DNA of 64,000 nt from Anaerobutyricum hallii. GTDB lineage: Bacteria; Bacillota; Clostridia; Lachnospirales; Lachnospiraceae. The notes beneath the pieces were generated by a model. That model was not told the origin of the DNA. It did not search any database and saw only the letters and a list, made by a program, of their open reading frames with translations. This document shows, one piece after another, positions 3,681 to 63,246 of this stretch. Both the position numbers and the translations under genes were made by a program. The DNA is taken from positions 863,219 to 927,218 of the forward strand of contig NZ_LT907978.1 of NCBI RefSeq assembly GCF_900209925.1, written 5' to 3'. How positions within the stretch are numbered: position 1 is the first letter of the stretch; every line of letters begins with the position of its first letter.

Positions 3681-4895
3681 ATGTTTAAAGTAAATGAGAA
3701 CTATTTAAAACTGCCGGGAAGTTATCTTTTTTCTACAATTGGAAAGAAAGTAGCCGCATACAAAGAGGCAAATCCAGATAAATCTATCATCAGTTTAGGT
3801 ATCGGTGATGTAACACAGCCATTAGCACCAAAGATTATCGAAAGTCTTCATAGTGCGGTAGACGAGATGGGAAAGGCAGAAACTTTTCATGGATACGCTC
3901 CAGATTTAGGATATGAATTTTTAAGAAATGCAATTGCAGATGGTGACTATAAGAGCCATGGCTGCGATATTCATGCAGATGAGATTTTTGTCAGTGATGG
4001 AGCAAAATGTGACTCGGGAAATATTCAGGAAATATTCAGTATAGATAACAAAATTGCAGTATGCGACCCAGTTTATCCAGTTTATGTCGATACGAATGTT
4101 ATGGCAGGAAGAACAGGAACATACGACCCTTCCACAGAAACCTGGAGTGATGTCATCTATATGCCATGCACCGCAGAGAATGATTTTGTACCAGACTTTC
4201 CAAAAGAAGAGCCGGACATTATCTATCTTTGCTTCCCAAATAATCCTACCGGAACAACGATTACAAAAGCACAGCTTCAGGACTGGGTTGATTATGCTAA
4301 TAAGATTGGCGCAGTAATTATTTATGATGCTGCTTACGAGGCATATATCAGCGAAGATGATGTCGCACACAGTATTTATGAATGTGAAGGAGCAAGAACC
4401 TGTGCAATTGAACTTCGAAGCTTTTCAAAGAATGCAGGATTTACAGGAACAAGACTTGGATTTACTGTAGTTCCTAAAGACTTAAAAGCCGGAGATGTTA
4501 CTTTACATTCCTTATGGGCAAGAAGACATGGAACAAAGTACAACGGTGCTCCATACATCATTCAGAGAGCAGGAGAAGCCTGCTACAGTGCAGAAGGAAA
4601 AGCACAGTTAAAAGAGCAGGTTGCTTTCTATATGAACAATGCGAAAATTATCAAAGAAGGCTTAAAAGATGCAGGATACACCGTATTTGGTGGAGTAAAC
4701 GCACCATATATCTGGTTACAGACTCCAGATAAAATGCCATCCTGGGACTTCTTTGACTTCCTGTTAAAGAATGCAAACGTAGTAGGAACACCAGGCTCAG
4801 GATTTGGACCAAGCGGAGAAGGATATTTCCGACTCACAGCATTCGGTTCTCATGAAAATACATTAAAAGCCATCGAAAGAATTAAAGCACTTTAA
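3681..4895 (+). CDS. dapL: LL-diaminopimelate aminotransferase (class I PLP aminotransferase, DapL type)
   Basis: N-terminal [17 protein letters not shown] is typical of DapL. 404 aa. Adjacent to dapF. Confidence 0.8.
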
Positions 4896-4911
4896 GATTA
4901 ATTTGCTGAGC

Positions 4912-5044
4912 AAAAGAAACGAAAACCAGAAATAAAGATAAAATAAAATGTGAAGATAGTCGCGGCGCAGAAAATGCCTGACCGGCATTTTTACTTGCTC
5001 CGACATCACATTTTATTTTATCTTTATTTCTGGTTTTCTGTTTA
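4912..5044. repeat. IR-A palindromic intergenic repeat, copy 1 (core in reverse orientation)
   Basis: The arms AAAACCAGAAATAAAGATAAAATAAAATGTGA and their exact reverse complement flank the core GAAAATGCCTGACCGGCATTTTTACTTGCTCCGACATCACA. Confidence 0.85.
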
Positions 5045-5188
5045 TTGATGCCATATAGAAATTAATATTTTAATCTGGAGAAAAAGGAGCTTGTCAAGAA
5101 GGCTGTGAGAATGGAAATTCTCCAGAAGGCTTTGGCGTTCACTGCTATTTGTTATCAAAACCAGACAGCTGCTGAAATAAAATTCTAT

Positions 5189-5484: not shown

Positions 5485-5662
5485 AATACTAATTTCCATC
5501 TGGAGCCAAAGCACAGAAAAGCAGAAATTTAATAGAGAAGAAAATGTGATGTCGGAGCGAGTAAAAATGCCGGTCAGGCATTTTCTGCGAAGCGACTATC
5601 TTCACATTTTCTTCTCTATTAAATTTCTGCTTTTCGTCTCTTTAATCCATCAAATTAGTATT
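5485..5662. repeat. IR-A palindromic repeat, copy 2 (core in forward orientation), with AAATACTAATTT/AAATTAGTATTT terminal inverted repeats
   Basis: CAGAAAAGCAGAAATTTAATAGAGAAGAAAATGTGA, then the core TGTCGGAGCGAGTAAAAATGCCGGTCAGGCATTTTCTGCGAAGCGAC, then the exact reverse complement of the arm. Confidence 0.85.
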
Positions 5663-6722
5663 TAAACCGTAATGCTTCTTCACTGGTCTGGGAGAGGATT
5701 TTCATCGCTTCTTCCGGATAAGCGCCCATAGCAGTTTCTCCTGTCAGCATTAATGAGGAAGCTCCATCTAAAACGGCCTGAAAGATGTCCGTTACTTCAG
5801 CCCTGGTTGGTACAGGGTTTTCTTCCATGGAGGCGAGCATCTGTGTGACGACCATAAAAGGTTTTTTTGCATGACGGCATGTCGTGGAGATTCTTTTTTG
5901 CACAGCAGGAAGTTTTGGCAGTGGAATAGCATTTCCAAGATCGCCTCGTGCAATTACAATCTCGTCGCAGAAAGGAAGAAGAGAAGGCAAGTGTTCAACA
6001 CCTTCTATGGATTCTATCTTGGCGAAGATGCGAATATAGTCCATATTATCTGCCATCAGTTCTTTTCGGAGTGTGATCAGATCATCTGCGTTTCTTACAA
6101 AAGGAAGCATGACACCGGTAACGTGGTATTTCCGAAGTAGTTTAAGATTTTCCTTGTCGGTTTTTGTAAGAACAGGGAGTGGAACAGTAAGATCTTTGAT
6201 TGCGATACTTTTTCTGGAAGTTAATTCGCCGCCCTTGATTACTTCTGCGCAAAAAATATCTGATTCTAGAGGAGCGGATATTTTTAAAACAATTTTTCCA
6301 TCATTAAGGCGGACTTCCTGCTCTTCATCAAAATAAGAGAAGAGAATTTCCGGACATGGGATAATAAAAAATTCATCTTTGCCATTAAGAATACGGGAAA
6401 AAATATCCGAATTTTCTTTTTTTTCCTGGAAGGACTTTTCTGATATAAGGAAAACGATATCTCCAGAAGAAAGTGATAGAGGAGTATCTAATGTGCCTAT
6501 ACGAAGTTCCGGACCCTGGAGATCAACAAGAAGTTCCGGAATGATATGCATACGTTCGGAAACTTCGTGATACTGCTGCAGCCAGTCTTCGCAGTCATCA
6601 AGATTACTGTGAGAAAGATTGAGCCGCATTCCGGTCATCCCCGCTAAAAACATTGCCTGTATTTTTTCTTTTGAAGCGCAGGCAGGACCGAGTGTTCCGT
6701 ATAAGTGAAGAGAATGTTTCAT
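5655..6722 (-). CDS. pyruvate kinase family protein with A and B domains only, lacking the C-terminal domain
   Basis: RLNLSHS, KIESIEG, ARGDLG, TQML and PTRAEV motifs align to the pyruvate kinase barrel. The product is only 355 aa, against about 470+ aa for a full pyruvate kinase. Confidence 0.6.
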   Translation of the reverse strand: MKHSLHLYGTLGPACASKEKIQAMFLAGMTGMRLNLSHSNLDDCEDWLQQYHEVSERMHIIPELLVDLQGPELRIGTLDTPLSLSSGDIVFLISEKSFQEKKENSDIFSRILNGKDEFFIIPCPEILFSYFDEEQEVRLNDGKIVLKISAPLESDIFCAEVIKGGELTSRKSIAIKDLTVPLPVLTKTDKENLKLLRKYHVTGVMLPFVRNADDLITLRKELMADNMDYIRIFAKIESIEGVEHLPSLLPFCDEIVIARGDLGNAIPLPKLPAVQKRISTTCRHAKKPFMVVTQMLASMEENPVPTRAEVTDIFQAVLDGASSLMLTGETAMGAYPEEAMKILSQTSEEALRFKY

Positions 6723-8192: not shown

Positions 8193-11100
8193 ATGCAGAG
8201 AAAGGTATATATTCTGGAGAATCTTGATTGTGCGAACTGTGCAGCCAAGATTGAAAGAAAGTTAAGCAAGCTGCCGGAGTTAAACGATGTATCAGTTACA
8301 TTTGCAACAAAACAGCTTCGATTTGAAGCAGAAGACCCAGAAGCAGTTTTGCCAAAAATCAGAGAGACAATTCAGTCTATGGAACCAGATGTTGAGGTTG
8401 TAGAAAGAACTCGCGGTAAGCGCAAAACAGCAGAGCATCACCATGAGCACCATGAGCATCATGATCACGAGCATGGTCACGAAGAGAGCTGTGGATGTGG
8501 CCACGAGCATCACCATGACCATCATGATCACGAGCATGATCATGAAGAGAGTTGTGGATGCGGCCACGAGCATCACCATGACCATCATGAGCATCATGAT
8601 CACGAACATGGCCATGAAGACGGTTGTGGATGCGGTCACGAGCATCATCATGAGCATCATGATCACGAGCATGGCCATGAAGAGGGCTGTGGATGTAGCC
8701 ACGAGCATCACCATGACCATCATGATCACGAGCATGGACATGAAGACGGCTGCGGCTGCGGACATGATCATCATCATGAACCATCCAAACCACAGGCGAC
8801 GCGATCACATACACATTTTGAAGTGGAATATCATCATGTAGACGGACATCCGGATCACTGTGATTGCAGTCAGTGTAATTCTTATATAGAATATTGTGAC
8901 GTATGTGGAGAAAGTCTTGCAAAGTGTACTTGCCATATGCCGGATGAGGATTTAGAGAAAAAGGTATATATTTTAGAAGGAATTGATTGTGCGAATTGTG
9001 CGGCTAAGATTGAGGCAAAAATCCGCCAGATGCCGGAAGTAGGATTTGCTTCGGTAGCATTTGCAACAAAGCAGCTTCGTGTTTCAGCAAATAATCAGGC
9101 AGAGTTATTGCCTAAAATGCAGGCTGTTGTAGATTCTATTGAAGACGGCGTGACAATTGTTCCAAGACAGAGAAAGAGACCAACAGGTATTTCTAATACA
9201 AAGATATATATTTTGGAAGGACTTGACTGTGCAAACTGTGCAGCTAAGATTGAAGCAAAGTTAAGAACACTCAATGGTGTAGATGATCTGACAATTACTT
9301 ATGCGACAAAGCAGATGAAGCTTTCTGCAAAGAATCCGGATCAGATGATTCCATTGATTAAAGAAACAATTGATTCTATGGAAGATGGAATTACAATTGT
9401 GCCAAAAGATAATAAAGTAGCAAAATCAGCAGAAAAAGAAGAGAAGAAATTCTCATTTAATAATCCATTAGTAAGTATTGGTATTGGAGCAGTAATATTT
9501 ATTATTGGTGAGGTACTTGAACATATTGGGAATGTACCGGCAATTCCAATGTTTGCTCTATTCTTGATTGCATATTTAGTTCTTGGCGGCAAAGTATTAG
9601 TTACAGCCGGGAAGAATATCATGAAAGGTCAGGTATTTGATGAAAACTTCTTGATGTGTATCGCAACAATTGGTGCGTTCTGTATTCAGGAATTTCCGGA
9701 AGCAGTAGGTGTTATGCTTTTCTATCGTATTGGTGAGTATTTTGAAGAAAAAGCAACGGAGCAGAGTCGTACACAGATTATGGAAGCAGTTGACTTAAGA
9801 CCGGAAGTTGTTAATCTTATTGTTGGAGAAGATATTCGTGTCATTGATGCAGAAGAAGCTAATGTAGGAGATATCCTTTTAGTACGTCCCGGTGACCGTA
9901 TTCCATTAGATGGTGTTATCATTGATGGAGAGAGCCGTATTGATACTTCACCTGTCACCGGTGAACCAGTACCGGTTATGGCAAAAACAGGAGATAATAT
10001 TGTTTCCGGATGTGTCAATACATCAGGACAGTTAAAAATTCGTGTTGAGAAGATTCTTGAGGAATCTATGGTAACAAGAATTCTTGATTCGGTGGAAAAT
10101 GCAGCAGCAAGTAAGCCGAATATTGACAAGTTTATTACTCGTTTTGCAAGAGTGTATACACCGTTTGTTGTATTTTTTGCATTATTTGTAGCAATTGTTC
10201 TTCCATTTATTTTACCTGATTCTCTGAACTGGCATCTTTTTGTAGATAGTGCATACACAGGAACAGTAAATACCATTTATGGAACAAGCGGAACAGCATC
10301 AATTTATACAGCATTGACATTCCTTGTTATCAGTTGCCCTTGTGCATTAGTATTAAGTGTTCCTCTGGCATTCTTTTCAGGAATTGGAGCGGGCTCTAAA
10401 AAAGGTATCCTCTTTAAAGGAGGAATTGCTATTGAAGGGCTTAAAAATGTCAAAGCAATTGTAATGGATAAAACAGGAACGATCACAAAAGGTAACTTTG
10501 TAGTTCAGAAAGCAAATCCGGCAGGAAATGCGATGACTGCAAATGATTTGTTAGCAATCAGTGCAAGTTGTGAATTGTCTTCTACACATCCGATCGGAAA
10601 TAGTATTGTAGATGCAGCAAAAGAAAAGGGACTTTCCATTGAGCGGCCTTCTAAAGTAGAAGAAATCGCAGGACATGGTATACGTGCAGAACTTAGTAAA
10701 GGTGTGGTTCTTTGTGGTAACAGAAAGCTTATGGATGAACAGAATGTTGATCTTAGCTCCTATCAGAAAGAAGACTTTGGCACAGAAGTCCTCGTTGTAT
10801 TAAACGGTAAATTTGTTGGAAACATTGTTATTTCTGATACAGTAAAGGAAGATGCGAAAGAAGCAATCGCAGCGGTAAAGAAGCAGGGAATCATTACTGC
10901 AATGCTTACAGGCGATGCGCAGGAGAGCGCAGATGCTGTTGCAAAAGAAACAGGAATCGACGAAGCACATGCAAAATTGCTTCCACAGGATAAGTTATCC
11001 GAGCTGAAGAAAATCAGAGAAAGTCATGGAGCAGTTATGTTTGTCGGAGATGGTATCAACGATGCACCGGTACTCGCTGGCGCAGATGTTGGTGCGGCAA

Positions 11101-11366
11101 TGGGAAGCGGCGCAGATGCAGCAATTGAAGCAGCAGATGTCGTATTTATGAATTCTGAAATGAAAGCGATTCCGGAAGCAGTCAGCATTGCAAAGATGAC
11201 AAACAGCATTTCATGGCAAAACGTTGTATTTGCACTTGCGATTAAAATTATTGTTATGATCATGGGACTTTTCGGATTTGCAAATATGTGGATCGCAGTA
11301 TTTGCAGATACAGGAGTATCCGTACTCTGCCTTCTGAATTCCATTAGGATTCTTCATAGAAAATAA
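8193..11366 (+). CDS. heavy-metal-translocating P1B-type ATPase (Zn/Cd/Co type) with three HMA-like CANCAAKIE domains and a His-rich repeat insert
   Basis: DKTGT phosphorylation site, CPC motif in TM6, GDGINDAP, a D-T-G motif in TM8, and three N-terminal LDCANCAAKIE domains. Confidence 0.9.
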   Translation: MQRKVYILENLDCANCAAKIERKLSKLPELNDVSVTFATKQLRFEAEDPEAVLPKIRETIQSMEPDVEVVERTRGKRKTAEHHHEHHEHHDHEHGHEESCGCGHEHHHDHHDHEHDHEESCGCGHEHHHDHHEHHDHEHGHEDGCGCGHEHHHEHHDHEHGHEEGCGCSHEHHHDHHDHEHGHEDGCGCGHDHHHEPSKPQATRSHTHFEVEYHHVDGHPDHCDCSQCNSYIEYCDVCGESLAKCTCHMPDEDLEKKVYILEGIDCANCAAKIEAKIRQMPEVGFASVAFATKQLRVSANNQAELLPKMQAVVDSIEDGVTIVPRQRKRPTGISNTKIYILEGLDCANCAAKIEAKLRTLNGVDDLTITYATKQMKLSAKNPDQMIPLIKETIDSMEDGITIVPKDNKVAKSAEKEEKKFSFNNPLVSIGIGAVIFIIGEVLEHIGNVPAIPMFALFLIAYLVLGGKVLVTAGKNIMKGQVFDENFLMCIATIGAFCIQEFPEAVGVMLFYRIGEYFEEKATEQSRTQIMEAVDLRPEVVNLIVGEDIRVIDAEEANVGDILLVRPGDRIPLDGVIIDGESRIDTSPVTGEPVPVMAKTGDNIVSGCVNTSGQLKIRVEKILEESMVTRILDSVENAAASKPNIDKFITRFARVYTPFVVFFALFVAIVLPFILPDSLNWHLFVDSAYTGTVNTIYGTSGTASIYTALTFLVISCPCALVLSVPLAFFSGIGAGSKKGILFKGGIAIEGLKNVKAIVMDKTGTITKGNFVVQKANPAGNAMTANDLLAISASCELSSTHPIGNSIVDAAKEKGLSIERPSKVEEIAGHGIRAELSKGVVLCGNRKLMDEQNVDLSSYQKEDFGTEVLVVLNGKFVGNIVISDTVKEDAKEAIAAVKKQGIITAMLTGDAQESADAVAKETGIDEAHAKLLPQDKLSELKKIRESHGAVMFVGDGINDAPVLAGADVGAAMGSGADAAIEAADVVFMNSEMKAIPEAVSIAKMTNSISWQNVVFALAIKIIVMIMGLFGFANMWIAVFADTGVSVLCLLNSIRILHRK
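8440..8800 (+). repeat. tandem 63-72 nt coding repeats (5 units) encoding a His-rich metal-binding segment
   Basis: Units of about 21-24 aa (HEHHxDHxxHEHGHEExCGCG) repeated five times within the ATPase ORF. Confidence 0.85.
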
Positions 11367-11388
11367 TAGTTTGTAGATTTCGTATAGA

Positions 11389-11506
11389 CGAAAAAAGAAA
11401 TACTGCCCTATCCCATCTGCTCTGTAGTCGCTGTGTTTAAAATGCTCGTCCGCATCTTAAACACGCTCCGAAGCCGCATCTGGGATAGGGCAGTATTTCT
11501 TTTTTC
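11389..11506. repeat. IR-B palindromic terminator-like repeat, copy 1
   Basis: GAAAAAAGAAATACTGCCCTATCCCATCTG, then an inner hairpin GTGTTTAAAATGC/GCATCTTAAACAC, then TGGGATAGGGCAGTATTTCTTTTTTC. Starts 23 bp after the ATPase stop codon. Confidence 0.85.
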
Positions 11507-11670
11507 TGACTATCTAAATCCACAATCGGTGAGAATGAGGGGATTGTCCAGAAGGCTATGGTTTTCATCCAAATAAAGGCTCCAGACAAGGAATATTTTC
11601 TTATGGAGAAATAGTTATTTGATTAAAAATCATAATCTTCCCAAAAATCCCCTTCTCTTTCCAACACAAA

Positions 11671-11846
11671 TCACTAATTTCCATCTGGAACCAAAGAGCA
11701 GAAAACCAGAAATTTAATATAGAAGAAAATGTGATGTCGGAGCGAGTAAAAATGCCGGTCAGGCATTTTCTGCGAAGCGACTATCTTCACATTTTCTTCT
11801 ATATTAAATTTCTGGTTTTCGTTTCTTTAGTCTCTCAAATTAGTAG
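11671..11846. repeat. IR-A palindromic repeat, copy 3
   Basis: Arms AAAACCAGAAATTTAATATAGAAGAAAATGTGA and their exact reverse complement, with the same core as the 5513 copy. Confidence 0.85.
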
Positions 11847-12119
11847 TTAATCTGCTCTGTATTCTTCTGGAATATCTTCTTCATCCCATACGATAACATT
11901 AAAGTTTTTCTGGCATCCCATCTTGATTCCAAAGCCAAGTACATTATCTGTAGAACGGTCTAAAGCAACTTTGATAAAATCAACAGCTTCTTTATGTTTG
12001 GTTCCTACAACATATACATTAAAGTTTTTAGAATATTCTCCATTTAAAACGGTGAATTCTCCTTTTTTTAAATGTTCATCTCGTTCTGGTGCTAACTTTC
12101 TCTTTTCAAGTATTGTCAT
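11847..12119 (-). CDS. hypothetical protein (90 aa)
   Basis: Strong RBS TAGGAGGAGATAT 6 nt upstream of the start. No recognisable domain. Confidence 0.55.
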   Translation of the reverse strand: MTILEKRKLAPERDEHLKKGEFTVLNGEYSKNFNVYVVGTKHKEAVDFIKVALDRSTDNVLGFGIKMGCQKNFNVIVWDEEDIPEEYRAD

Positions 12120-23363: not shown

Positions 23364-24365
23364 ATGATGAGAAGATATCTTGTAATATTAATGATGCCAT
23401 GTTTCGTGATGCTGTTTGGTATCTGTTGTCTGGCAGGCTGTGAGGGAAGTAAACATCATTTGAAAAAAGTACGTTTAAATGAAGTGGCTCATTCTATTTT
23501 TTATGCCCCACAATATGTGGCGATAGAAAAAGGTTATTTTGAGAAAGAGGGCATTAAGCTAGAACTCACAACCGGGTTTGGCGCAGATAAAACGGCGACA
23601 GCAGTCATCAGTGGAGATGCAGATATTGCTTTTATGGGACCGGAGGCAACGATTTATCAATTCAATCAGGGGAATGCAGATTATCTTATCAATTTTGCCC
23701 AGCTTACTCAAAGAGCAGGCAATTTTGTTGTAAGCCGGAACAAAGAAGAAGATTTTCAATGGGAGAACTTAAAAGGAAAGAAAGTTATTGGCGGAAGGCC
23801 AGGCGGCATGCCGGAAATGGTATTTGAGTATGTTTTGAAAAAACATGGGATGAATCCACAAAAAGACATTGATCTTGTACAAAATATTGATTTTGCGAAT
23901 ACATCTGGAGCATTTGTTTCAGGAAAAGCAGATTATACTATTGAATTTGAACCGTCAGCAACATTGATTGAAGAACAGGGGGCAGGTTATGTAGTTGCCT
24001 CTGTAGGAAAAGAGAGCGGATATGTGCCATATACAGCTTACAGCGTAAAGAAAAGCTATCTTGAATCACATAAAGAATTACTGGAAGCATTTACCCGGGC
24101 AATCGAAAAAGGACAGCAATATGTCAATACACATACACCGAAAGAAGTTGCAAAGGTAATTGCACCGCAATTTAAAGATACAGATAGAAAAACAATAGAA
24201 AAAATAGTAAAAAGATATGCTGAACAGGATAGTTATAAAGAAAATACAAAATTTGAAAAAGAAAGTTTTGTATTAATTCAGGATATCTTAGAAGAAGCAG
24301 GAGAACTAGAAAAACGCGTAGAATATGAAACATTAGTTACAACAGAATTTTCAGAAAAATACTAA
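23364..24365 (+). CDS. ABC-transporter substrate-binding lipoprotein (NMT1/SsuA/TauA-like), orphan
   Basis: Lipoprotein signal peptide with an LAGC lipobox and an NMT1-like fold. No permease or ATPase gene is adjacent. Confidence 0.7.
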   Translation: MMRRYLVILMMPCFVMLFGICCLAGCEGSKHHLKKVRLNEVAHSIFYAPQYVAIEKGYFEKEGIKLELTTGFGADKTATAVISGDADIAFMGPEATIYQFNQGNADYLINFAQLTQRAGNFVVSRNKEEDFQWENLKGKKVIGGRPGGMPEMVFEYVLKKHGMNPQKDIDLVQNIDFANTSGAFVSGKADYTIEFEPSATLIEEQGAGYVVASVGKESGYVPYTAYSVKKSYLESHKELLEAFTRAIEKGQQYVNTHTPKEVAKVIAPQFKDTDRKTIEKIVKRYAEQDSYKENTKFEKESFVLIQDILEEAGELEKRVEYETLVTTEFSEKY

Positions 24366-24537
24366 TTTGAGGGACTAAAGAAACGAAAACCAGAAATTTG
24401 ATAGAAAAGAAAATGTGAAGATAGTCGCTTCGTAGAAAATGCCTGACCGGCATTTTTACTTGCTCCGACATCACATGTTCTTTTCTATCAAATTTCTGGT
24501 TTTCTGTTCGTTGGCTCCAGATGGAAATTAGTATTTT
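24361..24537. repeat. IR-A palindromic repeat, copy 4 (reverse orientation)
   Basis: AAAACCAGAAATTTGATAGAAAAGAAAATGTGA..GAAAATGCCTGACCGGCATTTTT..arm reverse complement..TTGGCTCCAGATGGAAATTAGTATTTT. Confidence 0.85.
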
Positions 24538-32597: not shown

Positions 32598-34817
32598 ATG
32601 AGTATTTACGATACTTTAAATAAAGAACAAAGAGAGGCGGTCTTCTGTACAGAAGGCCCCCTTTTGATGCTTGCGGGAGCAGGATCGGGAAAGACCAGAT
32701 CACTAACACACCGTATTGCATATTTAATAGAAGAAAAAGGAATTGCACCATGGAACATTCTGGCAATCACTTTCACAAACAAGGCGGCGCAGGAGATGAG
32801 AGAGCGTGTAGATTCTCTGGTAGGATACGGTTCAGAAGATATTTGGATCAGCACCTTTCATGCTACTTGCAGCCGTATTTTGCGAAGACATATTGATTTG
32901 TTAGGATATGACAGAAATTTTACGATTTATGATGCAAGCGATCAAAAGTCTCTTATGAAAGAAGTTTTAAAAGAGATGAAAATCGATACGAAGCAGTTTC
33001 CAGAACGCTCGGTTATGTCAGAAATTTCTTCTGCCAAGAATGAATATAAATCTCCGCTCGATTATCGTAATGAGTACGGAAGTAATTATCGTAATCAGAG
33101 AATTGCGGATATTTATGAATGTTATCAGAAGCGTCTAAAGGAGAATAATGCACTTGATTTTGACGATCTTCTTGTAAAAATGGTAGATTTATTTCAGGCA
33201 AATCCAGAAGTTTTAGAGCATTATCAGGATCGTTTTCGGTATATTATGGTTGACGAATATCAGGATACGAATACAGTACAGTTCCTATTGGTAAGTCTTC
33301 TTGCAAAGAAATATTGTAATCTTTGTGTTGTCGGAGATGATGATCAGTCTATTTATAAATTCCGGGGAGCCAATATTTATAATATTTTAAATTTTGAGAA
33401 AGTATTTCCGGATGCACAGGTAATCCGTTTAGAACAGAATTATCGTTCCACGCAGAATATTCTTAATGCTGCAAACGGAGTTATTGCAAATAATAAAGGA
33501 AGAAAAGAAAAGAAATTGTGGACCGAAAACCAGAAGGGAGAATTGGTTCACTTTAAGCAGTATGATACGGAATATGAAGAGGCAGAAGGAGTTGTATCCA
33601 CTATTAATTTCCTCTCCATGCGAGGGGTAGAATATAAGGATATGGCAATTTTATATAGAACGAATGCACAGTCTCGCATATTTGAAGAAAAGTTAAAACA
33701 AAGAAATATTCCATATGCGATCGTACGAGGAATTAGTTTTTACGATAGAAAAGAAATTAAAGATTTGATGAGCTATCTGAAAGTGGTAGACAGCGGAATG
33801 GATGATCTCTCCGTAAAAAGAATTATCAATGTTCCGAAAAGAGGAATTGGTCAGACAACAATTAACCGTCTGCAGGAGTTTGCGATCATGAATCAGATGA
33901 GTTTCCTTGATGCAGTATTTAATGCAGATGAGATTCCGGAAGTTGCAAGGGCACTTGCAAAGCTTCATAAATTTGCAGATATGATAGAAAATTTTCGAAA
34001 TTACAGTATGGAACATGAAATCAGTGAATTGTTAGAACATATTCTTGATGTAACACAATATAGAGCAGAATTAGAAGCAGAAGGAACAGATGAATCCATC
34101 AGCCGCTTAGAAGATATAGAGGAACTTTTTAACGATATTGCATATTACGAAGAAGAGGAAGAAAATCCGAATCTTCGAGATTTCCTTGCAGAAAAAGATA
34201 TGTATACACTAAATGCGGGAATTGATAACTTAGAAGAAGAGGATAATAAGGTGTTATTGATGACACTTCATAATGCAAAAGGTCTGGAATTTAATAATGT
34301 TTTCCTTGGAGGCATGGAAGAAGGCGTGTTTCCAGGTTATGGTGCTATGATGTCAGGCGATGAATCAGAAATAGAAGAAGAACGCCGGCTTTGCTATGTT
34401 GGAATCACAAGAGCAAAGGAAAGACTGTTCTTAAGTTCAGCCAAGAGAAGAATGTTACGTGGTCAGACACAATATAACAGGCATTCCCGCTTTATCGATG
34501 AAATCCCTTCCGCTTATCTCGATATAAAGAAGAATAATTCCACACATCAGGAAGTGAAAAAGACAGATCGCCCGGTGAAGTATCAATATGGAGCGGGAGC
34601 AGGAAAACCGTATAATCTGAGTGATTTTAAAATAAAACCAGCCGGAGAATTAAATTATCAGGTGGGAGACCGCGTGAAGCATATCAAGTTTGGCGTGGGA
34701 ACCGTACAGGAAATCACAAAAGGTGGAAGAGATTATGAAGTCTCCGTAGACTTTGACAGAGTAGGACGAAAAAAAATGTTCGCATCTTTCGCAAAATTAA
34801 AAAAAGTTACTATTTGA
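32598..34817 (+). CDS. pcrA: ATP-dependent DNA helicase PcrA (UvrD family)
   Basis: GAGSGKT Walker A, DEYQDTN, and UvrD helicase motifs; 739 aa. Confidence 0.9.
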   Translation: MSIYDTLNKEQREAVFCTEGPLLMLAGAGSGKTRSLTHRIAYLIEEKGIAPWNILAITFTNKAAQEMRERVDSLVGYGSEDIWISTFHATCSRILRRHIDLLGYDRNFTIYDASDQKSLMKEVLKEMKIDTKQFPERSVMSEISSAKNEYKSPLDYRNEYGSNYRNQRIADIYECYQKRLKENNALDFDDLLVKMVDLFQANPEVLEHYQDRFRYIMVDEYQDTNTVQFLLVSLLAKKYCNLCVVGDDDQSIYKFRGANIYNILNFEKVFPDAQVIRLEQNYRSTQNILNAANGVIANNKGRKEKKLWTENQKGELVHFKQYDTEYEEAEGVVSTINFLSMRGVEYKDMAILYRTNAQSRIFEEKLKQRNIPYAIVRGISFYDRKEIKDLMSYLKVVDSGMDDLSVKRIINVPKRGIGQTTINRLQEFAIMNQMSFLDAVFNADEIPEVARALAKLHKFADMIENFRNYSMEHEISELLEHILDVTQYRAELEAEGTDESISRLEDIEELFNDIAYYEEEEENPNLRDFLAEKDMYTLNAGIDNLEEEDNKVLLMTLHNAKGLEFNNVFLGGMEEGVFPGYGAMMSGDESEIEEERRLCYVGITRAKERLFLSSAKRRMLRGQTQYNRHSRFIDEIPSAYLDIKKNNSTHQEVKKTDRPVKYQYGAGAGKPYNLSDFKIKPAGELNYQVGDRVKHIKFGVGTVQEITKGGRDYEVSVDFDRVGRKKMFASFAKLKKVTI

Positions 34818-34837
34818 TTCATTTAGAAGAAAACAGA

Positions 34838-34955
34838 CGAAAAAAGAAATAATACCATATCCCATCTGCTCTGTAGTCGCTGTGTTTAAGATGCTCATCC
34901 GCATCTTAAACACGCTCCGAAGCCGCATCTGGGATATGGTATTATTTCTTTTTTC
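34838..34955. repeat. IR-B palindromic terminator-like repeat, copy 2
   Basis: GAAAAAAGAAATAATACCATATCCCATCTG..GTGTTTAAGATGC/GCATCTTAAACAC..GGGATATGGTATTATTTCTTTTTTC. The inner hairpin is perfect through an A-to-G compensatory change. Confidence 0.85.
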
Positions 34956-35150
34956 TGTGTTTTGGCTCCAGAAGGAATGAATGCAATAGTCTTTGGAGAG
35001 AGATGGGGAAGAAATCAGAAGACTACTGCTTGCTCGGAAGATGTATCATCCAGAAGATTATTTTCTCGCTCTTAACGAGTAGTAAAGAGAAAGGAGATTG
35101 TCATTTTACAAAAAAGTACAGAAATCGCCTTTATATTTATCGTACATTCT

Positions 35151-35180
35151 AATTCAAGAACGCCTTGGCATTCTTGCTGC
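35151..35180. repeat. short palindrome family (CAAGAACGCCTTGGCATTCTTGCTGCG)
   Basis: Reverse orientation of the CGCAGCAAGAATGCC..GGCATTCTTGAAT element seen at 40287 and 55994. Confidence 0.6.
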
Positions 35181-35418
35181 GAGATGTGCGTTATATATAA
35201 CGTATGGCATATGTTTTGAGAAAAAACGATATATTGCGACAATATAATGATAAAATTATTATGTACAGTGATAGGTTTCGGTATCATCTTATCATCAGTG
35301 AAACTTGAAAAAAGGTTCAGCATAGTAGAAATAGCATCGAAATAAGCCACAACCTCCTGACCTCTCCCCCCTTTCTCTCCCCAAAAACTATTTCATTCAT
35401 TCCATGTGGTACCAACAC

Positions 35419-35542
35419 ACAGAAAATAAAAATAATAGACCATTGCAAATATAATGTGAGAGCAAGTAAAAATGCCGAACAGGCATTTTCTACGCAGTGA
35501 TATCTTTATATTTGCAATGGTCTATTATTTTTATTTTCGTCT
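35419..35542. repeat. IR-A palindromic repeat, copy 5 (divergent arms)
   Basis: Arms GAAAATAAAAATAATAGACCATTGCAAATATAA and their exact reverse complement, with the core GTAAAAATGCCGAACAGGCATTTTC. Confidence 0.8.
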
Positions 35543-35640
35543 GTTTTCCCCTAATGAATCAAATAGTAAAAAAATATTGTTGGTAAAGCAGGCTTTATCG
35601 TGATATACTAAAGAAAAGATTAGTAAGGAGGACTTGCATA

Positions 35641-36216: not shown

Positions 36217-36265
36217 GCATATTGTCAGCGCGAGAGAATGGCGAGGACATGAATTATTTGAATAT

Positions 36266-36340: not shown

Positions 36341-36345
36341 TATCT

Positions 36346-46113: not shown

Positions 46114-46656
46114 ATGCCAGAATTAAAAGGAACAAAAACAGAACAGAATTTAATGACAGCTTTTGCAGGAGAATCTCAGGCAAGAAACAAGTATTCTTAT
46201 TTTGCAAGTAAGGCAAAAAAAGAAGGATATGTTCAGATTGCAAATATTTTTGAAGAAACAGCTAATAATGAGAAAGAACATGCAAAGATGTGGTTTAAAC
46301 TCCTTGAAGGAGGAGCAATCCGCTCTACGATCGAGAATCTTCAGGCAGCAGCAGAAGGTGAGAACTATGAGTGGACAGATATGTATGCAACTTTTGCAAA
46401 AGAAGCAAGAGAAGAAGGTTTTGATGATATTGCGGAGAAGTTCGAAGGCGTTGGCGCCATTGAAAAGGAACATGAAGCAAGATATTTAAAACTTCTTGAT
46501 AATGTACAGAAAGAAATCGTTTTCTCCAGAGATGGCGATACGATTTGGCAGTGTGCAAACTGTGGACATATCTGTGTTGGAAAGAAAGCACCAGATGTAT
46601 GTCCGGTATGTGATCATCCACAGTCTTATTTCCAGATTAAAGCAGAGAATTTCTAG
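46114..46656 (+). CDS. rbr: rubrerythrin
   Basis: Ferritin-like diiron ExxH motifs plus a C-terminal rubredoxin CxxC...CxxC motif. Confidence 0.9.
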
Positions 46657-46668
46657 ATTTTATATAGA

Positions 46669-46740
46669 CGAAAAAAGAAACCATGCCCTATCCCATCTGC
46701 GACTAAAGAGCAGATGGGATAGGGCATGGTTTCTTTTTTT
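46669..46740. repeat. IR-B palindromic terminator-like repeat, copy 3 (short form without the inner hairpin)
   Basis: GAAAAAAGAAACCATGCCCTATCCCATCTGC-loop-GCAGATGGGATAGGGCATGGTTTCTTTTTTT. Starts 13 bp after the rbr stop codon. Confidence 0.85.
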
Positions 46741-46832
46741 CTGACCATCTTAAATCCACAGATCTGGAAATTTTCATTTTAATGAACAGCATAGACTTCT
46801 GGGCAATCCCATTATTACCCAAAAAAAATTTA

Positions 46833-47009
46833 AATACTAATTTCATCTGCAGCCAAAGAACAGAAAACCAGAAATTTAATAAAACAGAAAATGTGATGTC
46901 GGAGCGAGTAAAAATGCCGAGCAGGCATTTTCTACGCTGCGACTATCTTCACATTTTCTGTTTTATTAAATTTCTGGTTTTCGTTTCCTTAGCCTCATAA
47001 ATTAGTATT
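46833..47009. repeat. IR-A palindromic repeat, copy 6
   Basis: Arms AAAACCAGAAATTTAATAAAACAGAAAATGTGA and their exact reverse complement, with the core GTAAAAATGCCGAGCAGGCATTTTC. Confidence 0.85.
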
Positions 47010-59353: not shown

Positions 59354-59380
59354 TAATTTCCGGTTTTAGATTGGAAAGAA

Positions 59381-59477
59381 TAAAAACGATATATCTCATC
59401 TGAAGTTTTGAGATGCGTTCAAGATGCAAGAACATTTTTTACGCAGCATTTACAGAACAGGTGGGATATATCGTTTT
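59381..59477. repeat. IR-B-related palindrome (AAAAACGATATATCTCATCTG ... CAGGTGGGATATATCGTTTTTT)
   Basis: Shares the ATC(T/C)CATCTG / CAGATGGGAT arms and the A-tract/T-tract architecture of IR-B. Confidence 0.65.
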
Positions 59478-59781
59478 TTGTTTTTCTTTTATTTGAAACG
59501 TAGACAGGAACTCTTAGATATGACGCTGTGCAATGATAAAGTAAATGAAGGAAAATGAAATGTATTATGCGAAAAAAGATATAAAAAATACTATCTCTTG
59601 ACAAATTTAACTTTAATGATAGAATAATAACGGGAATAAAATGAAGTTTTTAAAAATGATTTATGCAATTCAGGTTGCTCGACTTGAAAGTCAGGATACT
59701 TTTGGAAACTATGCTATACTATATGGGTTTTTATAGACTGTGAATTGCCGTCATATTAATAAAAGAAATGGAGATAGAACT

Positions 59782-61182: not shown

Positions 61183-61222
61183 ATCAGTTAAAAACAGAAC
61201 TTAATACGAAGGATTTAAAGTA

Positions 61223-61291
61223 GACAGAAAAAATAAAAAAACGATATATTCCAGATGCAATTACAGGGCGGAGGAATATATCGTTTTTCTG
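61223..61291. terminator. palindromic bidirectional terminator between convergent genes (IR-B-related AAAAACGATATATTCC / GGAATATATCGTTTTT)
   Basis: GACAGAAAAA..ACGATATATTCC-loop-GGAATATATCGTTTTTCTGTC. Confidence 0.6.
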
Positions 61292-61317
61292 TCTATATCG
61301 AATCTACAAATTAAAAA

Positions 61318-63246
61318 TTATTCTGATAATTCTTCCCATTTGTCATAGAGTTCTAGTAAGGTAGATTCATTTTCTTCAAATTTAGTATTGAGTTCCATAA
61401 GTTTTGATACATTGGTAGCATTTTCAGGTAATGCCATTTCATTTTTTAACTGATCATTTTCTGCTTCTAAGCGACTGATTTCTTTTTCTGTCTTCTTTAA
61501 ATCGTTGGCACGCTTACGCTGTTTTGCGGCCTCTTCACGCGAACGTTTCCAGTCCTCCTTGGCTTTTTCTGGAGAAGGGGCAGGAGATTTATCAGCGGAG
61601 GCAGCAAGTGTGATGTTATCGCTGTCAGCAGATACGTTTCCAGCTTCTTTTTGTTCTAAGTAATAGTTGTAGTTGCCTTTATAGTTTACGATGCCTTCTG
61701 GGGATAAGTCCAGGATTCTTGTGGCTGTTTGATTAATGAAGTAACGGTCATGGGAAACGTAAAATACAGTTCCCTCATAGTTGTTAATCGCTTCTTCTAA
61801 AATTTCTCTGGACTGGATGTCTAAATGGTTGGTCGGCTCATCAAGAATGATGAAGTTCGCATTGGAAAGCATGAGTTTAGCGAGAGAAACTCGTCCTTTT
61901 TCGCCACCACTCAAAGTGCCGATGACCTGAAATACATCTTCGCCGGTAAAAAGAAAGGCAGCAAGAACATTTCGGATGCGGGTATTAGTCAGCTTTGGAT
62001 AGGCATCAGAAATTTCATCAAAAATTGTTTTGGAATCGTCTAATACATGTTGTTCCTGATCATAATAACCGATGGACACCTTAGAGCCGTAGCGGATTTT
62101 TCCAGAGTCAGCACGAAGCTGGCGGTTAATGATTTTTAAAAGAGTGGTTTTTCCGGTACCGTTGGCACCGAGGAGTCCAACAACTTCCCCACGTTTAATC
62201 TGAACATTTAAATTACGGAATAAAGCCTTATCACCAAAAGATTTGGAAAGTCCTTCAATAGTAAGAACATCGTTTCCACTAAGTACTTCCGGTTCTAAAG
62301 TGATACGCATCTTACTGTTTAAAGTCACAGGTTTATCGACAAGTTCAATCTTACTAAGCATTTTCTCCCGGCTTTCGGCACGTTTGATGGACTTTTCACG
62401 ATTGAAAGAGCGAAGCTTTGTGATTACCTCCTCCTGATGGTGGATTTCTTGTTGCTGATTCATATAAAGTTTCATCTGGGCATCACGCTGTGCTTTTTTC
62501 TTTTCGGCGTAAGCACTGTAGTTGCCGTTAAATACCTGACTGTTTCCACGCTCGATCTCGATTACTTTATCAACAACTTTATCAAGAAAATAGCGGTCAT
62601 GGGAAACAATAAGCACCGCACCCCGGTAGTTAGAAAGGAAAGTTTCTAACCAGCGAATGGATTCCATATCAAGGTGGTTAGTCGGCTCATCAAGTAAAAT
62701 GAGATCCGGGTGCATCAGAAGAATACGGCTGAGTGCTACGCGGGTCTTCTGTCCTCCGGAAAGTGTATGGATTGGTGTGTCAAACTGGCTTTCATCAAAA
62801 CCAAGACCTTTTAATACACCGATAATTTCGCTTTTCCAGGCATAACCATTTGCCTTCTCAAAGCGGTCAGTGAAACGGGAATAACTTTCCATTGCGCTTT
62901 CTAGTGCTTCACCGGACAAAGTGCTGATATCTTTTTCTAACTGACGTATTTTCTTTTCTAGTTCGATGATATCTTTTTTGGCATCAAGCATTTCTTCATA
63001 AATGCTGCGATGAGAACTTACGTCAATGATCTGAGATAAGTAGCCATAAGTAGATCCTTTCTGAAAGATAACCTCCCCATGATCTGCCTCATATTCTCCG
63101 GTGATAATTTTGAAAAGAGTGGTTTTACCGGCGCCGTTGATACCGATTACAGCAGCCTTTTCCCCTTCATTAATTAAAAAATTAACATTATTTAATACGG
63201 ATTTGCCTCCGAATGCTTTTTCGATTTTCTGACAGGCTAAAATCAT
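61318..63246 (-). CDS. ABC-F family ATPase (two ABC domains, no transmembrane domain; Uup/EttA-like) with a C-terminal coiled coil
   Basis: Two Walker A motifs (GINGAGKTT and GANGTGKTT), two LSGGQ/LSGGE signatures, and an acidic/basic coiled-coil tail. RBS GGAGG before the ATG at 63246. Confidence 0.85.
   Translation of the reverse strand: MILACQKIEKAFGGKSVLNNVNFLINEGEKAAVIGINGAGKTTLFKIITGEYEADHGEVIFQKGSTYGYLSQIIDVSSHRSIYEEMLDAKKDIIELEKKIRQLEKDISTLSGEALESAMESYSRFTDRFEKANGYAWKSEIIGVLKGLGFDESQFDTPIHTLSGGQKTRVALSRILLMHPDLILLDEPTNHLDMESIRWLETFLSNYRGAVLIVSHDRYFLDKVVDKVIEIERGNSQVFNGNYSAYAEKKKAQRDAQMKLYMNQQQEIHHQEEVITKLRSFNREKSIKRAESREKMLSKIELVDKPVTLNSKMRITLEPEVLSGNDVLTIEGLSKSFGDKALFRNLNVQIKRGEVVGLLGANGTGKTTLLKIINRQLRADSGKIRYGSKVSIGYYDQEQHVLDDSKTIFDEISDAYPKLTNTRIRNVLAAFLFTGEDVFQVIGTLSGGEKGRVSLAKLMLSNANFIILDEPTNHLDIQSREILEEAINNYEGTVFYVSHDRYFINQTATRILDLSPEGIVNYKGNYNYYLEQKEAGNVSADSDNITLAASADKSPAPSPEKAKEDWKRSREEAAKQRKRANDLKKTEKEISRLEAENDQLKNEMALPENATNVSKLMELNTKFEENESTLLELYDKWEELSE

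What the first reader, a model, noticed from the sequence alone, without database searches (positions are those of the whole stretch)
11389..11506. IR-B: terminator-like palindromes with variable but self-complementary distal arms, always within 25 bp of plus-strand stop codons
Copies at 11389-11506 (after the metal ATPase), 34838-34955 (after pcrA) and 46669-46740 (after rbr) share the form A-tract, arm, ATCCCATCTG ... CAGATGGGAT, reverse-complement arm, T-tract. The distal arms (ATACTGCCCT, ATAATACCAT, ACCATGCCCT) co-vary perfectly with their partners. The two long copies hold an inner hairpin, GTGTTTAA(A/G)ATGC / GCATCTTAAACAC, where an A-to-G change in one copy restores perfect pairing. 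The A-tract-stem-U-tract layout suggests bidirectional intrinsic terminators built from a repeat family. Related hairpins at 59381-59477 and 61223-61291 share the AAAAACGATATAT arms.
Basis: seen in the sequence. Interest (0 to 1): 0.6.

Follow-up and report, generated by a model that had tools for sequence, protein, structure and literature searches.

The report
Stop-codon-docked palindromic repeat family
The "terminator-like palindromes" are copies of a previously undescribed repeat family of the gut bacterium Anaerobutyricum. Each copy sits directly on the stop codon of a gene, almost always in one orientation, and probably serves as that gene's transcription terminator or 3'-end hairpin.

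Summary
Three IR-B copies and two diverged ones lie at the stated places, fold far better than shuffles, and their 9-10 bp arms co-vary. Two corrections: in the long copies the right inner box is GCATCTGGGAT, not CAGATGGGAT, and the element is larger than described.

IR-B is one subfamily of a superfamily with 11 members in the window, including the neighbouring "IR-A" palindromes. All share this layout: stop-rich left flank, GACGAAAA A-tract, about 23 bp of helix, an asymmetric 47-nt module (TAGTCGC-hairpin-GCTCCGA), the mirror helix, T-tract.

In 79 centre-anchored copies from gut metagenomes, the arms are as variable as unconstrained sites (pi 0.31) but 94% Watson-Crick paired. The tracts, inner helix and unpaired loops are nearly invariant (pi 0.02-0.06).

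The upstream gene's stop codon lies 0-30 nt before GACG in 53 of 71 elements and never 31-118 nt before it. Orientation follows that gene 54:1.

In the sister species A. hallii, the same pcrA site carries an ordinary GC-rich hairpin.

Best reading: a REPIN/ERIC-like dispersed palindrome that acts as a terminator cassette. Terminator activity, the means of spread and the partner of the conserved module are inferred, not shown.

The parts
11360..11529 (+). IR-B long copy 1. Left flank 11360-11386 (AAAATAATAGTTTGTAGATTTCGTATA); A-tract 11387-11400; arm 11400-11409; inner box ATCCCATCTGC 11410-11420; 55-nt centre 11421-11475; GCATCTGGGAT 11476-11486; mirror arm 11487-11496; T-tract 11496-11508; right flank to about 11529.
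   Evidence: I10; 175 bits on +, 83 on -. The upstream P-type ATPase (8193..11366, Pfam) ends inside the left flank.
11425..11471 (+). Conserved asymmetric 47-nt module of copy 1: TAGTCGC, T, hairpin 11433-11445 / 11452-11464 with loop TCGTCC, then GCTCCGA.
   Evidence: Exactly 47 nt in both IR-A and IR-B copies. A third hairpin type carries the same brackets. Diversity of the internal loops is 0.04-0.06.
34808..34989 (+). IR-B long copy 2 inside a type-b outer flank (TACTATTTGATTCATT..GAAAACA / CTGTGTTTTGGCTCC..GGAATGAATGCAATAG). Core 34836-34957; module 34874-34920.
   Evidence: I11; 168 bits on +. The pcrA stop TGA (34815-34817) lies inside the flank. A. hallii has an ordinary hairpin at this site.
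46650..46761 (.). IR-B short copy (deletion derivative). Core 46667-46743; 9-nt loop GACTAAAGA, which is the flipped TCTTTAGTC; perfect CAGATGGGAT.
   Evidence: I9; 79.9 bits on +, 72 on -. The rubrerythrin stop TAG (46654-46656) is the TAG of the flank. The copy is conserved in 10 or more strains and decaying in some.
59365..59499 (-). Diverged long IR-B-like copy in reverse orientation, with arms CGATATAT and a 55-nt centre.
   Evidence: I13; E 4e-9; 61 bits on -, 34 on +. It follows plsY (+), so it is one of the few copies not co-oriented with the upstream gene.
61214..61312 (-). Diverged short copy with the same CGATATAT arms. It is docked on the stop of the minus-strand ABC-F gene 61318..63258.
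   Evidence: (37.9 bits on -, 24.6 on +).
4908..5051 (+). IR-A member of the superfamily, docked on the stop of 3681..4895 (+).
   Evidence: I7; 61.5 bits.
5503..5648 (-). IR-A member, docked on the stop of 5655..6722 (-).
   Evidence: I6; 56.6 bits.
11688..11833 (-). IR-A member, docked on the stop of 11847..12119 (-). It faces IR-B copy 1 across a convergent spacer.
   Evidence: I1; 56.7 bits.
24372..24517 (+). IR-A member, docked on the stop of the substrate-binding-protein gene 23364..24365 (+).
   Evidence: I4; 58.6 bits. The 94%-identical ortholog ends 2 codons earlier and is followed by a different hairpin.
35409..35551 (-). IR-A-type member in a type-b flank, inverted partner of copy 2. 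Not docked on a gene.
   Evidence: I8; 76.8 bits. It has swapped places with IR-B in strains L039 and L047.
46850..46995 (-). IR-A member downstream of the short IR-B copy. Not docked on a gene.
   Evidence: I2; 65.4 bits. Deleted in strain L071.

Best explanation
IR-B is one subfamily of a lineage-specific superfamily of dispersed, nested-palindrome DNA repeats in Anaerobutyricum, a human-gut Lachnospiraceae genus. Elements are about 140-170 nt.

Each element reads, on the strand of the upstream gene:
1. a left flank rich in stop codons ((T)AAAATACTRATTTGTAGATTT..TAGACG);
2. an A-tract;
3. a helix whose 9-10 outer base pairs may be any sequence as long as they pair;
4. a conserved inner helix with a fixed 2x2 mismatch;
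5. a 47-nt asymmetric module (TAGTCGC-hairpin-GCTCCGA);
6. the mirror helix;
7. a T-tract.

Shown: it is a repeat family; the helix is maintained by compensated changes; the element is docked on the stop codon of a co-oriented gene and usually supplies that stop; copies are reshuffled by recombination.

Inferred: once transcribed with the upstream gene, the element folds into a very stable hairpin followed by UUUCUUUUUUC. That hairpin acts as the gene's factor-independent terminator and 3'-end protecting structure. The invariant unpaired loops are the binding site of an unidentified partner, either a protein that acts on the RNA or the enzyme that copies the element.
For: Repeat family:
- There are 3 exact A-tract/inner-box copies in the window.
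- A pattern scan of 185,579 species genomes found about 22 further copies, all in Anaerobutyricum-type genomes, plus 5-6 chance hits.
These represent 82 independent loci when clustered by upstream flank.
- A covariance model finds 11 members in the window, including the IR-A copies, at E 1e-11 to 1e-15 in the predicted orientation.
- IR-A and IR-B are colinear: same left flank, GACGAAAA, and a 47-nt module of identical length.

Structure:
- Folding z-scores are -9 to -15.
- 96.5% of cells are paired; 9 pairs show double changes; 43 cells changed on both sides; 0 of 500 shuffles reach this; sliding the partner columns collapses pairing to about 45-57%.
- In 79 independent-anchor cores the arm cells are 670 Watson-Crick, 7 G-U and 34 mismatched, with 33 distinct left arms.
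- Compensated changes also occur between orthologous copies: L054, L039 and L075 against the window.

Constraint pattern (nucleotide diversity, pi):
- arms 0.31, hairpin loop 0.21, outer flanks 0.38-0.50;
- A-tract 0.02, inner helix 0.02-0.04, internal loops 0.04-0.06, T-tract 0.05.

Docking and orientation:
- The co-oriented upstream ORF stops -2 to 30 nt before GACG in 53 of 71 elements, and never 31-118 nt before it.
- Stops of opposite-strand ORFs are spread 24-300 nt from the right end.
- 54 elements have only a co-oriented docked ORF; 1 has only an opposite one.
- The stops used are TRA at -17 and TAG/TAA at -10, inside the conserved flank.
- Three minus-strand genes in the window carry minus-oriented elements, so orientation follows the gene rather than the replication strand.

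Terminator position:
- At the pcrA site A. hallii (PcrA 94% identical) has a 124-nt spacer holding an ordinary GC-rich hairpin. The window has the repeat composite there.
- A second site shows the same contrast.
Against: - No transcript 3'-end data were available, so termination is unproven.
- The hairpin spans 113 nt and has about 42 pairs, far outside the usual terminator size. A standard terminator scan does not flag it.
- A plain terminator needs neither the invariant unpaired loops nor a fixed orientation.
- G-U pairs are not favoured over other mismatches (7 against 34), and many double changes are A-T to C-G. This fits pairing maintained at the DNA level at least as well as RNA-level selection.
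- No clean empty site, target-site duplication or autonomous partner was found, so the means of spread is unknown.
- Some mismatched or mirror-image copies in metagenomes may be assembly chimeras.
- ORFs were called only as open frames of 80 codons or more.
Confidence: 0.6

Rival explanations
1. A purely selfish, non-autonomous mobile element of the REPIN, PATE or MITE kind. A transposase encoded elsewhere recognises the conserved 47-nt module and inner boxes on folded single-stranded DNA and copies the element. The terminator-like shape is incidental. Docking on stop codons reflects a target preference for TAATTTG-like sequences.
For: - The conserved-box / variable-paired-spacer pattern with compensatory changes is exactly what was reported for REPINs (PMC3116915, read).
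- A GTAG lies 4 nt 5' of the inner hairpin in IR-B.
- Both native sites in the sister species read TAA(A)TTTTG or TAATTTG at the junction.
- The type-b composite ends in a perfect 16-bp inverted repeat flanked by TA on each side.
- IS200/IS605 Y1 transposases are active in these genomes.
- Watson-Crick-only covariation fits DNA hairpins.
Against: - No empty site, duplication or excision product was seen.
- IR-B was present at all three window sites in every strain examined.
- No RAYT-like gene was found in about 1.3 Mb of held DNA. The IS605 ends carry a different hairpin (CCCACTACC..GGTGGTGGG).
- IR-A has ATAG where IR-B has GTAG.
- Orientation follows gene direction even for minus-strand genes. 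Lagging-strand single-stranded DNA transposition does not predict this.
- A short sequence preference cannot easily explain the complete absence of insertions 31-118 nt past stop codons in AT-rich spacers.
Confidence: 0.25
2. A dedicated cis-acting 3'-UTR RNA element. The conserved asymmetric internal loop is bound by a protein or cut by an RNase, and this sets mRNA stability or couples translation termination to mRNA fate. Termination itself is secondary.
For: - The unpaired loops are the most conserved part and are shared by three subfamilies with different hairpins.
- The 54:1 orientation bias and the docking within a ribosome footprint of the stop codon point to a function read on the sense transcript.
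- From my own knowledge, not checked here: E. coli REPs within about 15 nt of a stop codon modulate translation through ribosome stalling, and ERIC effects on upstream mRNA depend on orientation.
Against: - There is no match to any Rfam family, even at E up to 10.
- No G-U tolerance is seen in the helix.
- The short derivatives lack most of the module yet persist at docked sites (46650-46761, and L012, L022, L033).
- No binding partner is known.
Confidence: 0.2
3. A DNA-level site, for example a target of a site-specific recombinase that exchanges 3' cassettes, or a binding site for gyrase or a nucleoid protein at gene ends, as proposed for BIMEs.
For: - IR-A and IR-B cores have swapped places and orientation inside the same outer flanks between strains.
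- Modules come and go in the ATPase spacer, which ranges from 392 to 850 nt.
- Different modules follow a common CTRATTT leader at orthologous gene ends in sister species.
- Mirror-image and loop-flipped copies exist.
Against: - The swaps are explained by ordinary homologous recombination between inverted repeats.
- There is no integrase or recombinase linkage.
- Integron attC features (R/L boxes GTTRRRY, an array next to intI) are absent.
- Some mirror forms may be assembly artefacts.
Confidence: 0.1
4. Unrelated terminators that resemble each other by chance or convergence, not a repeat family.
For: A-tract/stem/T-tract is a generic terminator layout.
Against: Over 100 copies are 90-100% identical across about 100 nt, including unpaired positions, at unrelated genes. 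Motif counts far exceed shuffles.
Confidence: 0.01

Closest known systems
REPINs / REP-BIME elements (Pseudomonas, E. coli)
   Same: - Dispersed extragenic palindromes at gene 3' ends that form long hairpins.
- Highly conserved boxes separated by a spacer in which only length and pairing matter, with frequent compensatory changes (PMC3116915).
- They cluster with other palindromic modules in mosaics.
   Different: - No sequence similarity.
- Found in Firmicutes rather than Proteobacteria.
- The conserved centre is a single asymmetric 47-nt module, not two inverted REPs.
- GTAG is not conserved across subfamilies.
- No RAYT was found.
- Strict docking on the stop codon and a 54:1 orientation bias are not described for REPINs.
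ERIC / IRU elements of enterobacteria (from my own knowledge, not checked here)
   Same: - An imperfect palindrome of about 127 bp across its whole length.
- Lies in transcribed intergenic regions.
- Has long and short forms produced by internal insertions or deletions.
- Compensatory substitutions are reported.
- Effects on the upstream mRNA depend on orientation.
   Different: - Unrelated sequence and host.
- ERIC copies occur in both orientations and at variable distance from genes.
- ERIC has no A-tract/T-tract terminator layout.
Intrinsic (Rho-independent) terminators
   Same: - A stable hairpin followed immediately by a U-rich tract, just downstream of a stop codon.
- An A-tract upstream, as in bidirectional terminators.
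- It occupies the position that an ordinary terminator hairpin holds in the sister species.
   Different: - The hairpin spans 67-113 nt, against the usual 15-40 nt.
- It is a multi-copy homologous family with conserved unpaired loops and fixed orientation.
- Simple terminator criteria do not detect it.
Correia (Neisseria), RUP/BOX (pneumococcus) and other bacterial MITEs (from my own knowledge)
   Same: - Non-coding repeats of 100-200 bp with terminal inverted repeats.
- Co-transcribed with neighbouring genes.
- Some act as terminators or RNase III substrates.
- A TA dinucleotide flanks the type-b composite here, as it does Correia elements.
   Different: - No demonstrated target-site duplication and no parent insertion sequence.
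- The palindrome runs through almost the whole element.
- The element is docked on stop codons.
Integron attC sites
   Same: - An imperfect palindrome lying directly after, and often overlapping, the stop codon of the upstream ORF in a fixed orientation.
- Structure is conserved more than sequence in part of the helix.
- Conserved mismatches could mark one strand.
   Different: - No R''/L''/L'/R' boxes (RYYYAAC / GTTRRRY), no integrase and no cassette array.
- The upstream genes are housekeeping genes in conserved synteny (pcrA, a P-type ATPase, rubrerythrin).

Membership tests
Intrinsic terminator | Stable stem-loop followed within 0-2 nt by a U-rich tract | tested here: met
   Folding gives -56 to -68 kcal/mol. 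The stem runs straight into UUUCUUUUUUC.
Intrinsic terminator | Compact hairpin (stem about 5-14 bp, loop 3-8 nt) | tested here: not met
   About 30 pairs (short form) to 42 pairs (long form), with a span of 67-113 nt. Not reported by the consensus terminator scan.
Intrinsic terminator | Transcript 3' ends map to the U-tract | not testable with these tools
   No Term-seq or RNA-seq data for Anaerobutyricum were available.
REP / REPIN | Conserved palindromic boxes in inverted orientation forming a hairpin, with a spacer constrained only in length and pairing | tested here: met
   Diversity is 0.31 in the arms against 0.02-0.06 in the boxes. 94% of arm cells are Watson-Crick.
REP / REPIN | Conserved 5' GT[AG]G next to the REP hairpin | tested here: inconclusive
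   IR-B has CTGTAGTCGC 4 nt before the inner hairpin. IR-A has GATAGTCGC (ATAG).
REP / REPIN | A single-copy RAYT (Y1 transposase) gene flanked by the repeats | tested here: inconclusive
   tblastn with the local IS605 TnpA over all held loci found only IS605 copies and one IS200 fragment, none of them flanked in the RAYT manner. Whole genomes could not be scanned.
MITE | Small, non-coding, multi-copy, with terminal inverted repeats | tested here: met
   140-170 nt and 82 or more independent loci. Outer flanks are inverted repeats, perfect in L022 and in the type-b composite. The only ORF nearby (35072..35350) has no Pfam match and looks spurious.
MITE | Target-site duplication and filled/empty site polymorphism | tested here: inconclusive
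   TA flanks both ends of the type-b composite. However, the sister-species site is not empty: it carries another hairpin module, and about 57 nt are replaced. No strain lacked IR-B at the three window sites.
MITE | Parent insertion sequence with the same ends | tested here: not met
   None was found in the held loci. There is no match in the plasmid or phage collections.
Integron attC | R''-L''...L'-R' boxes with a GTTRRRY core, in a cassette array next to intI | tested here: not met
   The boxes are absent from the sequence. Neighbouring genes are housekeeping genes in conserved synteny.
Any Rfam RNA family | Covariance-model score at or above the gathering threshold | tested here: not met
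   Only tRNAs pass in the window. At E up to 10, the region 11340-11870 gives only sub-threshold miRNA-hairpin noise, on the IR-A part.

The most novel reading that the evidence does not exclude
The 47-nt module (TAGTCGC-hairpin-GCUCCGA), always read in the sense of a gene whose stop codon lies within a ribosome footprint of the element, is the recognition site of a dedicated and still unknown protein. Under this reading the cassettes form a new class of stop-codon-coupled 3'-end elements, distinct from REP/RAYT. They would either link translation termination to mRNA fate, or be placed at stop codons by a machinery that senses gene ends.
Probability: 0.25. Interest if true: 0.75.

Novelty: new variant of a known kind. 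Interest (0 to 1): 0.55.

Why it matters
- Anaerobutyricum hallii and A. soehngenii are prominent butyrate producers of the human gut. About a fifth of gene ends in this window carry one of these cassettes.
- The cassettes probably define many transcript 3' ends, are missed by standard terminator predictors, and break short-read assemblies. Several census hits sit at contig ends.
- The family gives a clean natural example of a helix that evolves freely while staying paired, next to invariant unpaired loops. This makes a hidden partner experimentally approachable.
- It is also a caution. Strong covariation in a palindromic DNA repeat need not mean RNA-level selection.
- The strict docking on stop codons and the near-absolute orientation bias are not explained by what is known of REP, ERIC or MITE elements.

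Tried and rejected
- **Known RNA family:** none found in Rfam at gathering thresholds or at E up to 10.
- **Ribozymes:** I compared the loops by eye with the hammerhead, hairpin-ribozyme, K-turn and sarcin-ricin motifs. Required junctions or second loops are missing, and Rfam gave no hit.
- **Plasmid or phage origin:** no blastn match.
- **Published description:** full-text searches gave nothing relevant.
- **Integron attC:** the boxes and the context are absent.
- **Coding potential:** an ATG in the inner hairpin opens short frames, but there is no ribosome-binding site, the arm changes are non-synonymous, and the third hairpin type has no ATG. ORF 35072..35350 between the two pcrA elements has no Pfam hit and looks spurious.
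- **Linked transposase:** the IS200-like ORF between two IR-B copies in L011 is a truncated remnant next to a YqeY gene. The IS605 and its mini-derivative inserted near IR-B have unrelated hairpins.
- **Hypermutation of the arms:** not needed. The arms are no more variable than the hairpin loop and the outer flanks.
- **Homogenisation of the core by inter-copy gene conversion:** this would also homogenise the arms that lie inside it. It may still explain multi-site arm differences between orthologous copies.
- **Orientation set by the replication strand:** contradicted by three minus-strand genes with minus-oriented elements.
- **Orthology of census loci to the window:** none.
- **Search for an empty site:** the two sister-species sites turned out to hold other modules.

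Full report
**Observation.** The three main copies and the two "related hairpins" are at the stated coordinates. Each main copy reads GACGAAAAAAGAAA, a 10-nt arm, ATCCCATCTGC, a centre, the mirror arm and TTTCTTTTTTCTG. The arms are perfectly complementary within each copy. The RNA folds reach -56 to -68 kcal/mol, with z-scores of -11 to -13 against dinucleotide shuffles, and the reverse strands fold about as well. The flanking motifs are far more frequent than in shuffles.

Four corrections are needed:
- In the two long copies the right inner box is GCATCTGGGAT, which leaves a conserved 2x2 pyrimidine mismatch. Only the short copy has CAGATGGGAT.
- The short copy's 9-nt loop is the reverse complement of the start of the long centre.
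- The repeat unit continues outward as a further imperfect palindrome (11360-11529).
- 59381-59477 and 61223-61291 are diverged long and short members lying on the minus strand.

**Organism and census.** The rubrerythrin locus is identical in GCA_048164435.1 and in many human-gut metagenomes. PcrA is 94% identical to that of Anaerobutyricum hallii. A pattern scan of one genome per species (GAAAAAAGAAA-N8-12-ATCCCATCTG) returned about 22 true copies, all in Anaerobutyricum-type genomes, plus a handful of chance hits in unrelated phyla. None of those loci is orthologous to the window. Clustering by upstream flank gives 82 independent loci. Nothing similar occurs in the plasmid or phage collections, in Rfam or in the searched literature.

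**Anatomy.** A covariance model built from 22 copies finds 11 members in the window. The strand with the higher score defines the orientation. Six of the 11 are the neighbouring "IR-A" palindromes. IR-A and IR-B are colinear: both have the left flank AATACTAATTTG.., then GACGAAAA, about 23 bp of helix, a module running from TAGTCGC to GCTCCGA that is exactly 47 nt in both, the mirror helix and a T-rich tract. A third hairpin type carries the same TAGTCGC / GCTCCGA brackets. Short forms keep TAGTCGC and lack the 46 nt up to the next CGC, so they are deletion derivatives. A medium form is deleted between two CCGCATCT repeats (L174).

**Covariation and constraint.**
- On 22 copies, 96.5% of cells pair. 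Nine pairs show changes on both sides (43 cells). No shuffle out of 500 reaches this, and sliding the partner columns drops pairing to about 45-57%.
- The double changes are concentrated in the arms. Many are A-T to C-G or T-A to A-T, which have no wobble intermediate.
- In 79 distinct cores from the centre-anchored scan, where the arms and tracts were not part of the search pattern, the arm cells are 670 Watson-Crick, 7 G-U and 34 mismatched. There are 33 distinct left arms.
- Nucleotide diversity is 0.31 in the arms, 0.21 in the inner hairpin loop and 0.38-0.50 in the outer flanks. It is only 0.02 in the A-tract, 0.02-0.04 in the inner helix, 0.04-0.06 in the unpaired internal loops and 0.05 in the T-tract.

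The arms are therefore not hypervariable. They behave like unconstrained sequence that must stay paired, while the rest, including the unpaired loops, is held constant.

Compensated differences also separate orthologous copies in different strains:
- ATACTGCCCT/AGGGCAGTAT against ATAATGCCCT/AGGGCATTAT after the ATPase;
- ATAATACCAT against ATAATCCCAT after pcrA;
- three compensated pairs in the rubrerythrin copy of L075.

Uncompensated states exist too (L049, L003, L071). Because G-U is not favoured and transversion pairs are common, the pairing may be maintained at the DNA level (arm-to-arm templating in a hairpin or cruciform, or replacement by another copy) as readily as by RNA-level selection. 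I could not separate these.

**Docking and orientation.** "Forward" is defined as the strand that reads TAGTCGC...GCTCCGA.
- In 71 distinct centre-anchored elements with enough flank, a co-oriented open frame of 80 or more codons ends -2 to 30 nt before GACG in 53. None ends 31-118 nt before it. Opposite-strand frames end anywhere from 24 to 300 nt beyond the right end.
- 54 elements have only the co-oriented docked ORF and 1 has only an opposite one.
- 59 of the 82 independent loci are docked.
- IR-A behaves the same way: 13 of 19 copies are docked.
- Conservation of the left flank begins about 29 nt before GACG. The stops used are the flank's own TRA at -17 and TAG/TAA at -10.
- In the third reading frame the stop sits at the flank boundary, or rarely the ORF reads on to +55 (L158, L187).
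- In the window 7 members are docked and co-oriented. Three of these follow minus-strand genes in a region dominated by plus-strand genes, so orientation follows the gene rather than the replication strand.
- The exceptions are mostly second elements of inverted pairs (35409-35551, 46850-46995) or copies with a flipped centre.

**Comparison with relatives.**
- In A. hallii the pcrA-to-next-gene spacer is 124 nt and holds an ordinary GC-rich hairpin that overlaps the stop codon.
- In the window about 750 nt of repeat composite, bounded by TACTATTTGATTCATT / AATGAATCAAATAGTA, replaces that hairpin. The junction lies two codons before the native stop.
- After the substrate-binding-protein gene (23364..24365), the 94%-identical ortholog ends GAA TAA and is followed by a different hairpin. 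The window reads GAA AAA TAC TAA TTTG.. into IR-A.
- Both native junctions read TAA(A)TTTTG or TAATTTG. Both are followed by a GCCGCAGGCA-type motif that itself recurs after other stop codons. These are therefore not truly empty sites, but sites occupied by another module behind a similar CTRATTT leader.
- A more distant relative (Ppx 87% identical) has a plain hairpin where the window has IR-A.

**Dynamics.**
- In strains L039 and L047 the IR-B and IR-A cores of the pcrA spacer have exchanged places and orientation inside the same outer flanks, while the middle keeps its orientation. Two successive recombinations between inverted flanks explain this.
- The ATPase spacer varies from 392 to 850 nt as further palindromic modules come and go.
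- IR-A is deleted between TTCTGG repeats in L071.
- Mirror-symmetric and loop-flipped copies occur in metagenomes (L195, L129, L087). Some of these may be assembly chimeras.

**Interpretation.** The repeat-family nature, the maintained helix, the docking and the orientation bias are shown. That the element terminates transcription is inferred from four things:
- its shape (a very stable hairpin running into UUUCUUUUUUC);
- its position;
- the absence of any other terminator after the genes concerned;
- its replacement of an ordinary terminator hairpin in the sister species.

A plain terminator does not explain the invariant unpaired loops or the fixed orientation. These suggest a partner that reads the module on the sense transcript or on one DNA strand. 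The closest described systems are REPINs, for which conserved boxes around a spacer constrained only in length and pairing, with frequent compensatory changes, were reported (PMC3116915), and ERIC-type palindromes. Membership in REP/RAYT is not established: GTAG is not conserved across subfamilies, and no RAYT was found in the DNA held. I therefore file the finding as a new variant of the dispersed-palindrome kind. What marks it out is stop-codon docking, near-absolute co-orientation with the upstream gene and a shared asymmetric module.

**Limits.**
- ORFs were simple open frames.
- Metagenomic copies are partly orthologous, which I addressed by clustering.
- Both census patterns impose some ascertainment bias. 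The centre-anchored one leaves the arms, tracts and flanks free.
- Complete genomes could not be scanned, so copy number per genome and any linked gene remain unknown.

Noticed in passing
window 4908-5051, 5503-5648, 11688-11833, 24372-24517, 35409-35551, 46850-46995: The larger "IR-A" palindromes (core AAAATGCC..GGCATTTT) are colinear homologues of IR-B. They share the left flank, GACGAAAA and the 47-nt TAGTCGC...GCTCCGA module, and they are docked on stop codons in the same way.
   Followed up: yes
window 11537-11680 and 24525-24768; 5211-5378 and 24841-24996: Two further palindromic repeat modules sit next to IR-A/IR-B in mosaics: GGGGATTGTCCAGAAGG../..CTTCTGGAGAATCCCC, and AAAAAAGAATTGTTATA... 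They are present or absent between strains, and the ATPase spacer ranges from 392 to 850 nt.
   Followed up: partly
L058-L067 about 4218-4265; L204 about 1085-1110; L136, L143, L165, L189: A GC-rich motif, TTGCC(C)GCAGGCA(A/G)(A/G)GAGAC, recurs directly after stop codons behind a CTGATTT/TAATTTG leader, including at the A. hallii sites orthologous to the window's pcrA and 23364..24365 elements. It looks like another module of the same mosaic system.
   Followed up: partly
L008-L010, L068, L070, L072-L074 (downstream of rbr); L003 and L075 (inside the IR-B left flank); L069: Strain-specific insertions next to the rubrerythrin IR-B copy: an IS200/IS605 element (Y1 transposase plus OrfB/TnpB) after TTTTCAT, a 55-nt hairpin mini-element between GATTTTAT and ATAGACG, and a DDE transposase element in L069.
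   Followed up: partly
L039 and L047 against window 34808-35580: The IR-B and IR-A cores have swapped ends and orientation within the pcrA spacer between strains, while the middle segment keeps its orientation.
   Followed up: yes
window 8375-8779: There are 63-nt tandem repeats in the N-terminal His-rich / HMA region of the P-type ATPase. The called ATPase length ranges from 809 to 1131 aa among strains.
   Followed up: no
window 36253-37155: A cluster of nine tRNA genes contains an internal duplication: 36253-36417 is 97% identical to 36868-37032.
   Followed up: no
L012, L014, L024, L036 and many of L084-L203: Many census hits lie at the very ends of contigs, which suggests these repeats break short-read assemblies of Anaerobutyricum.
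   Followed up: no
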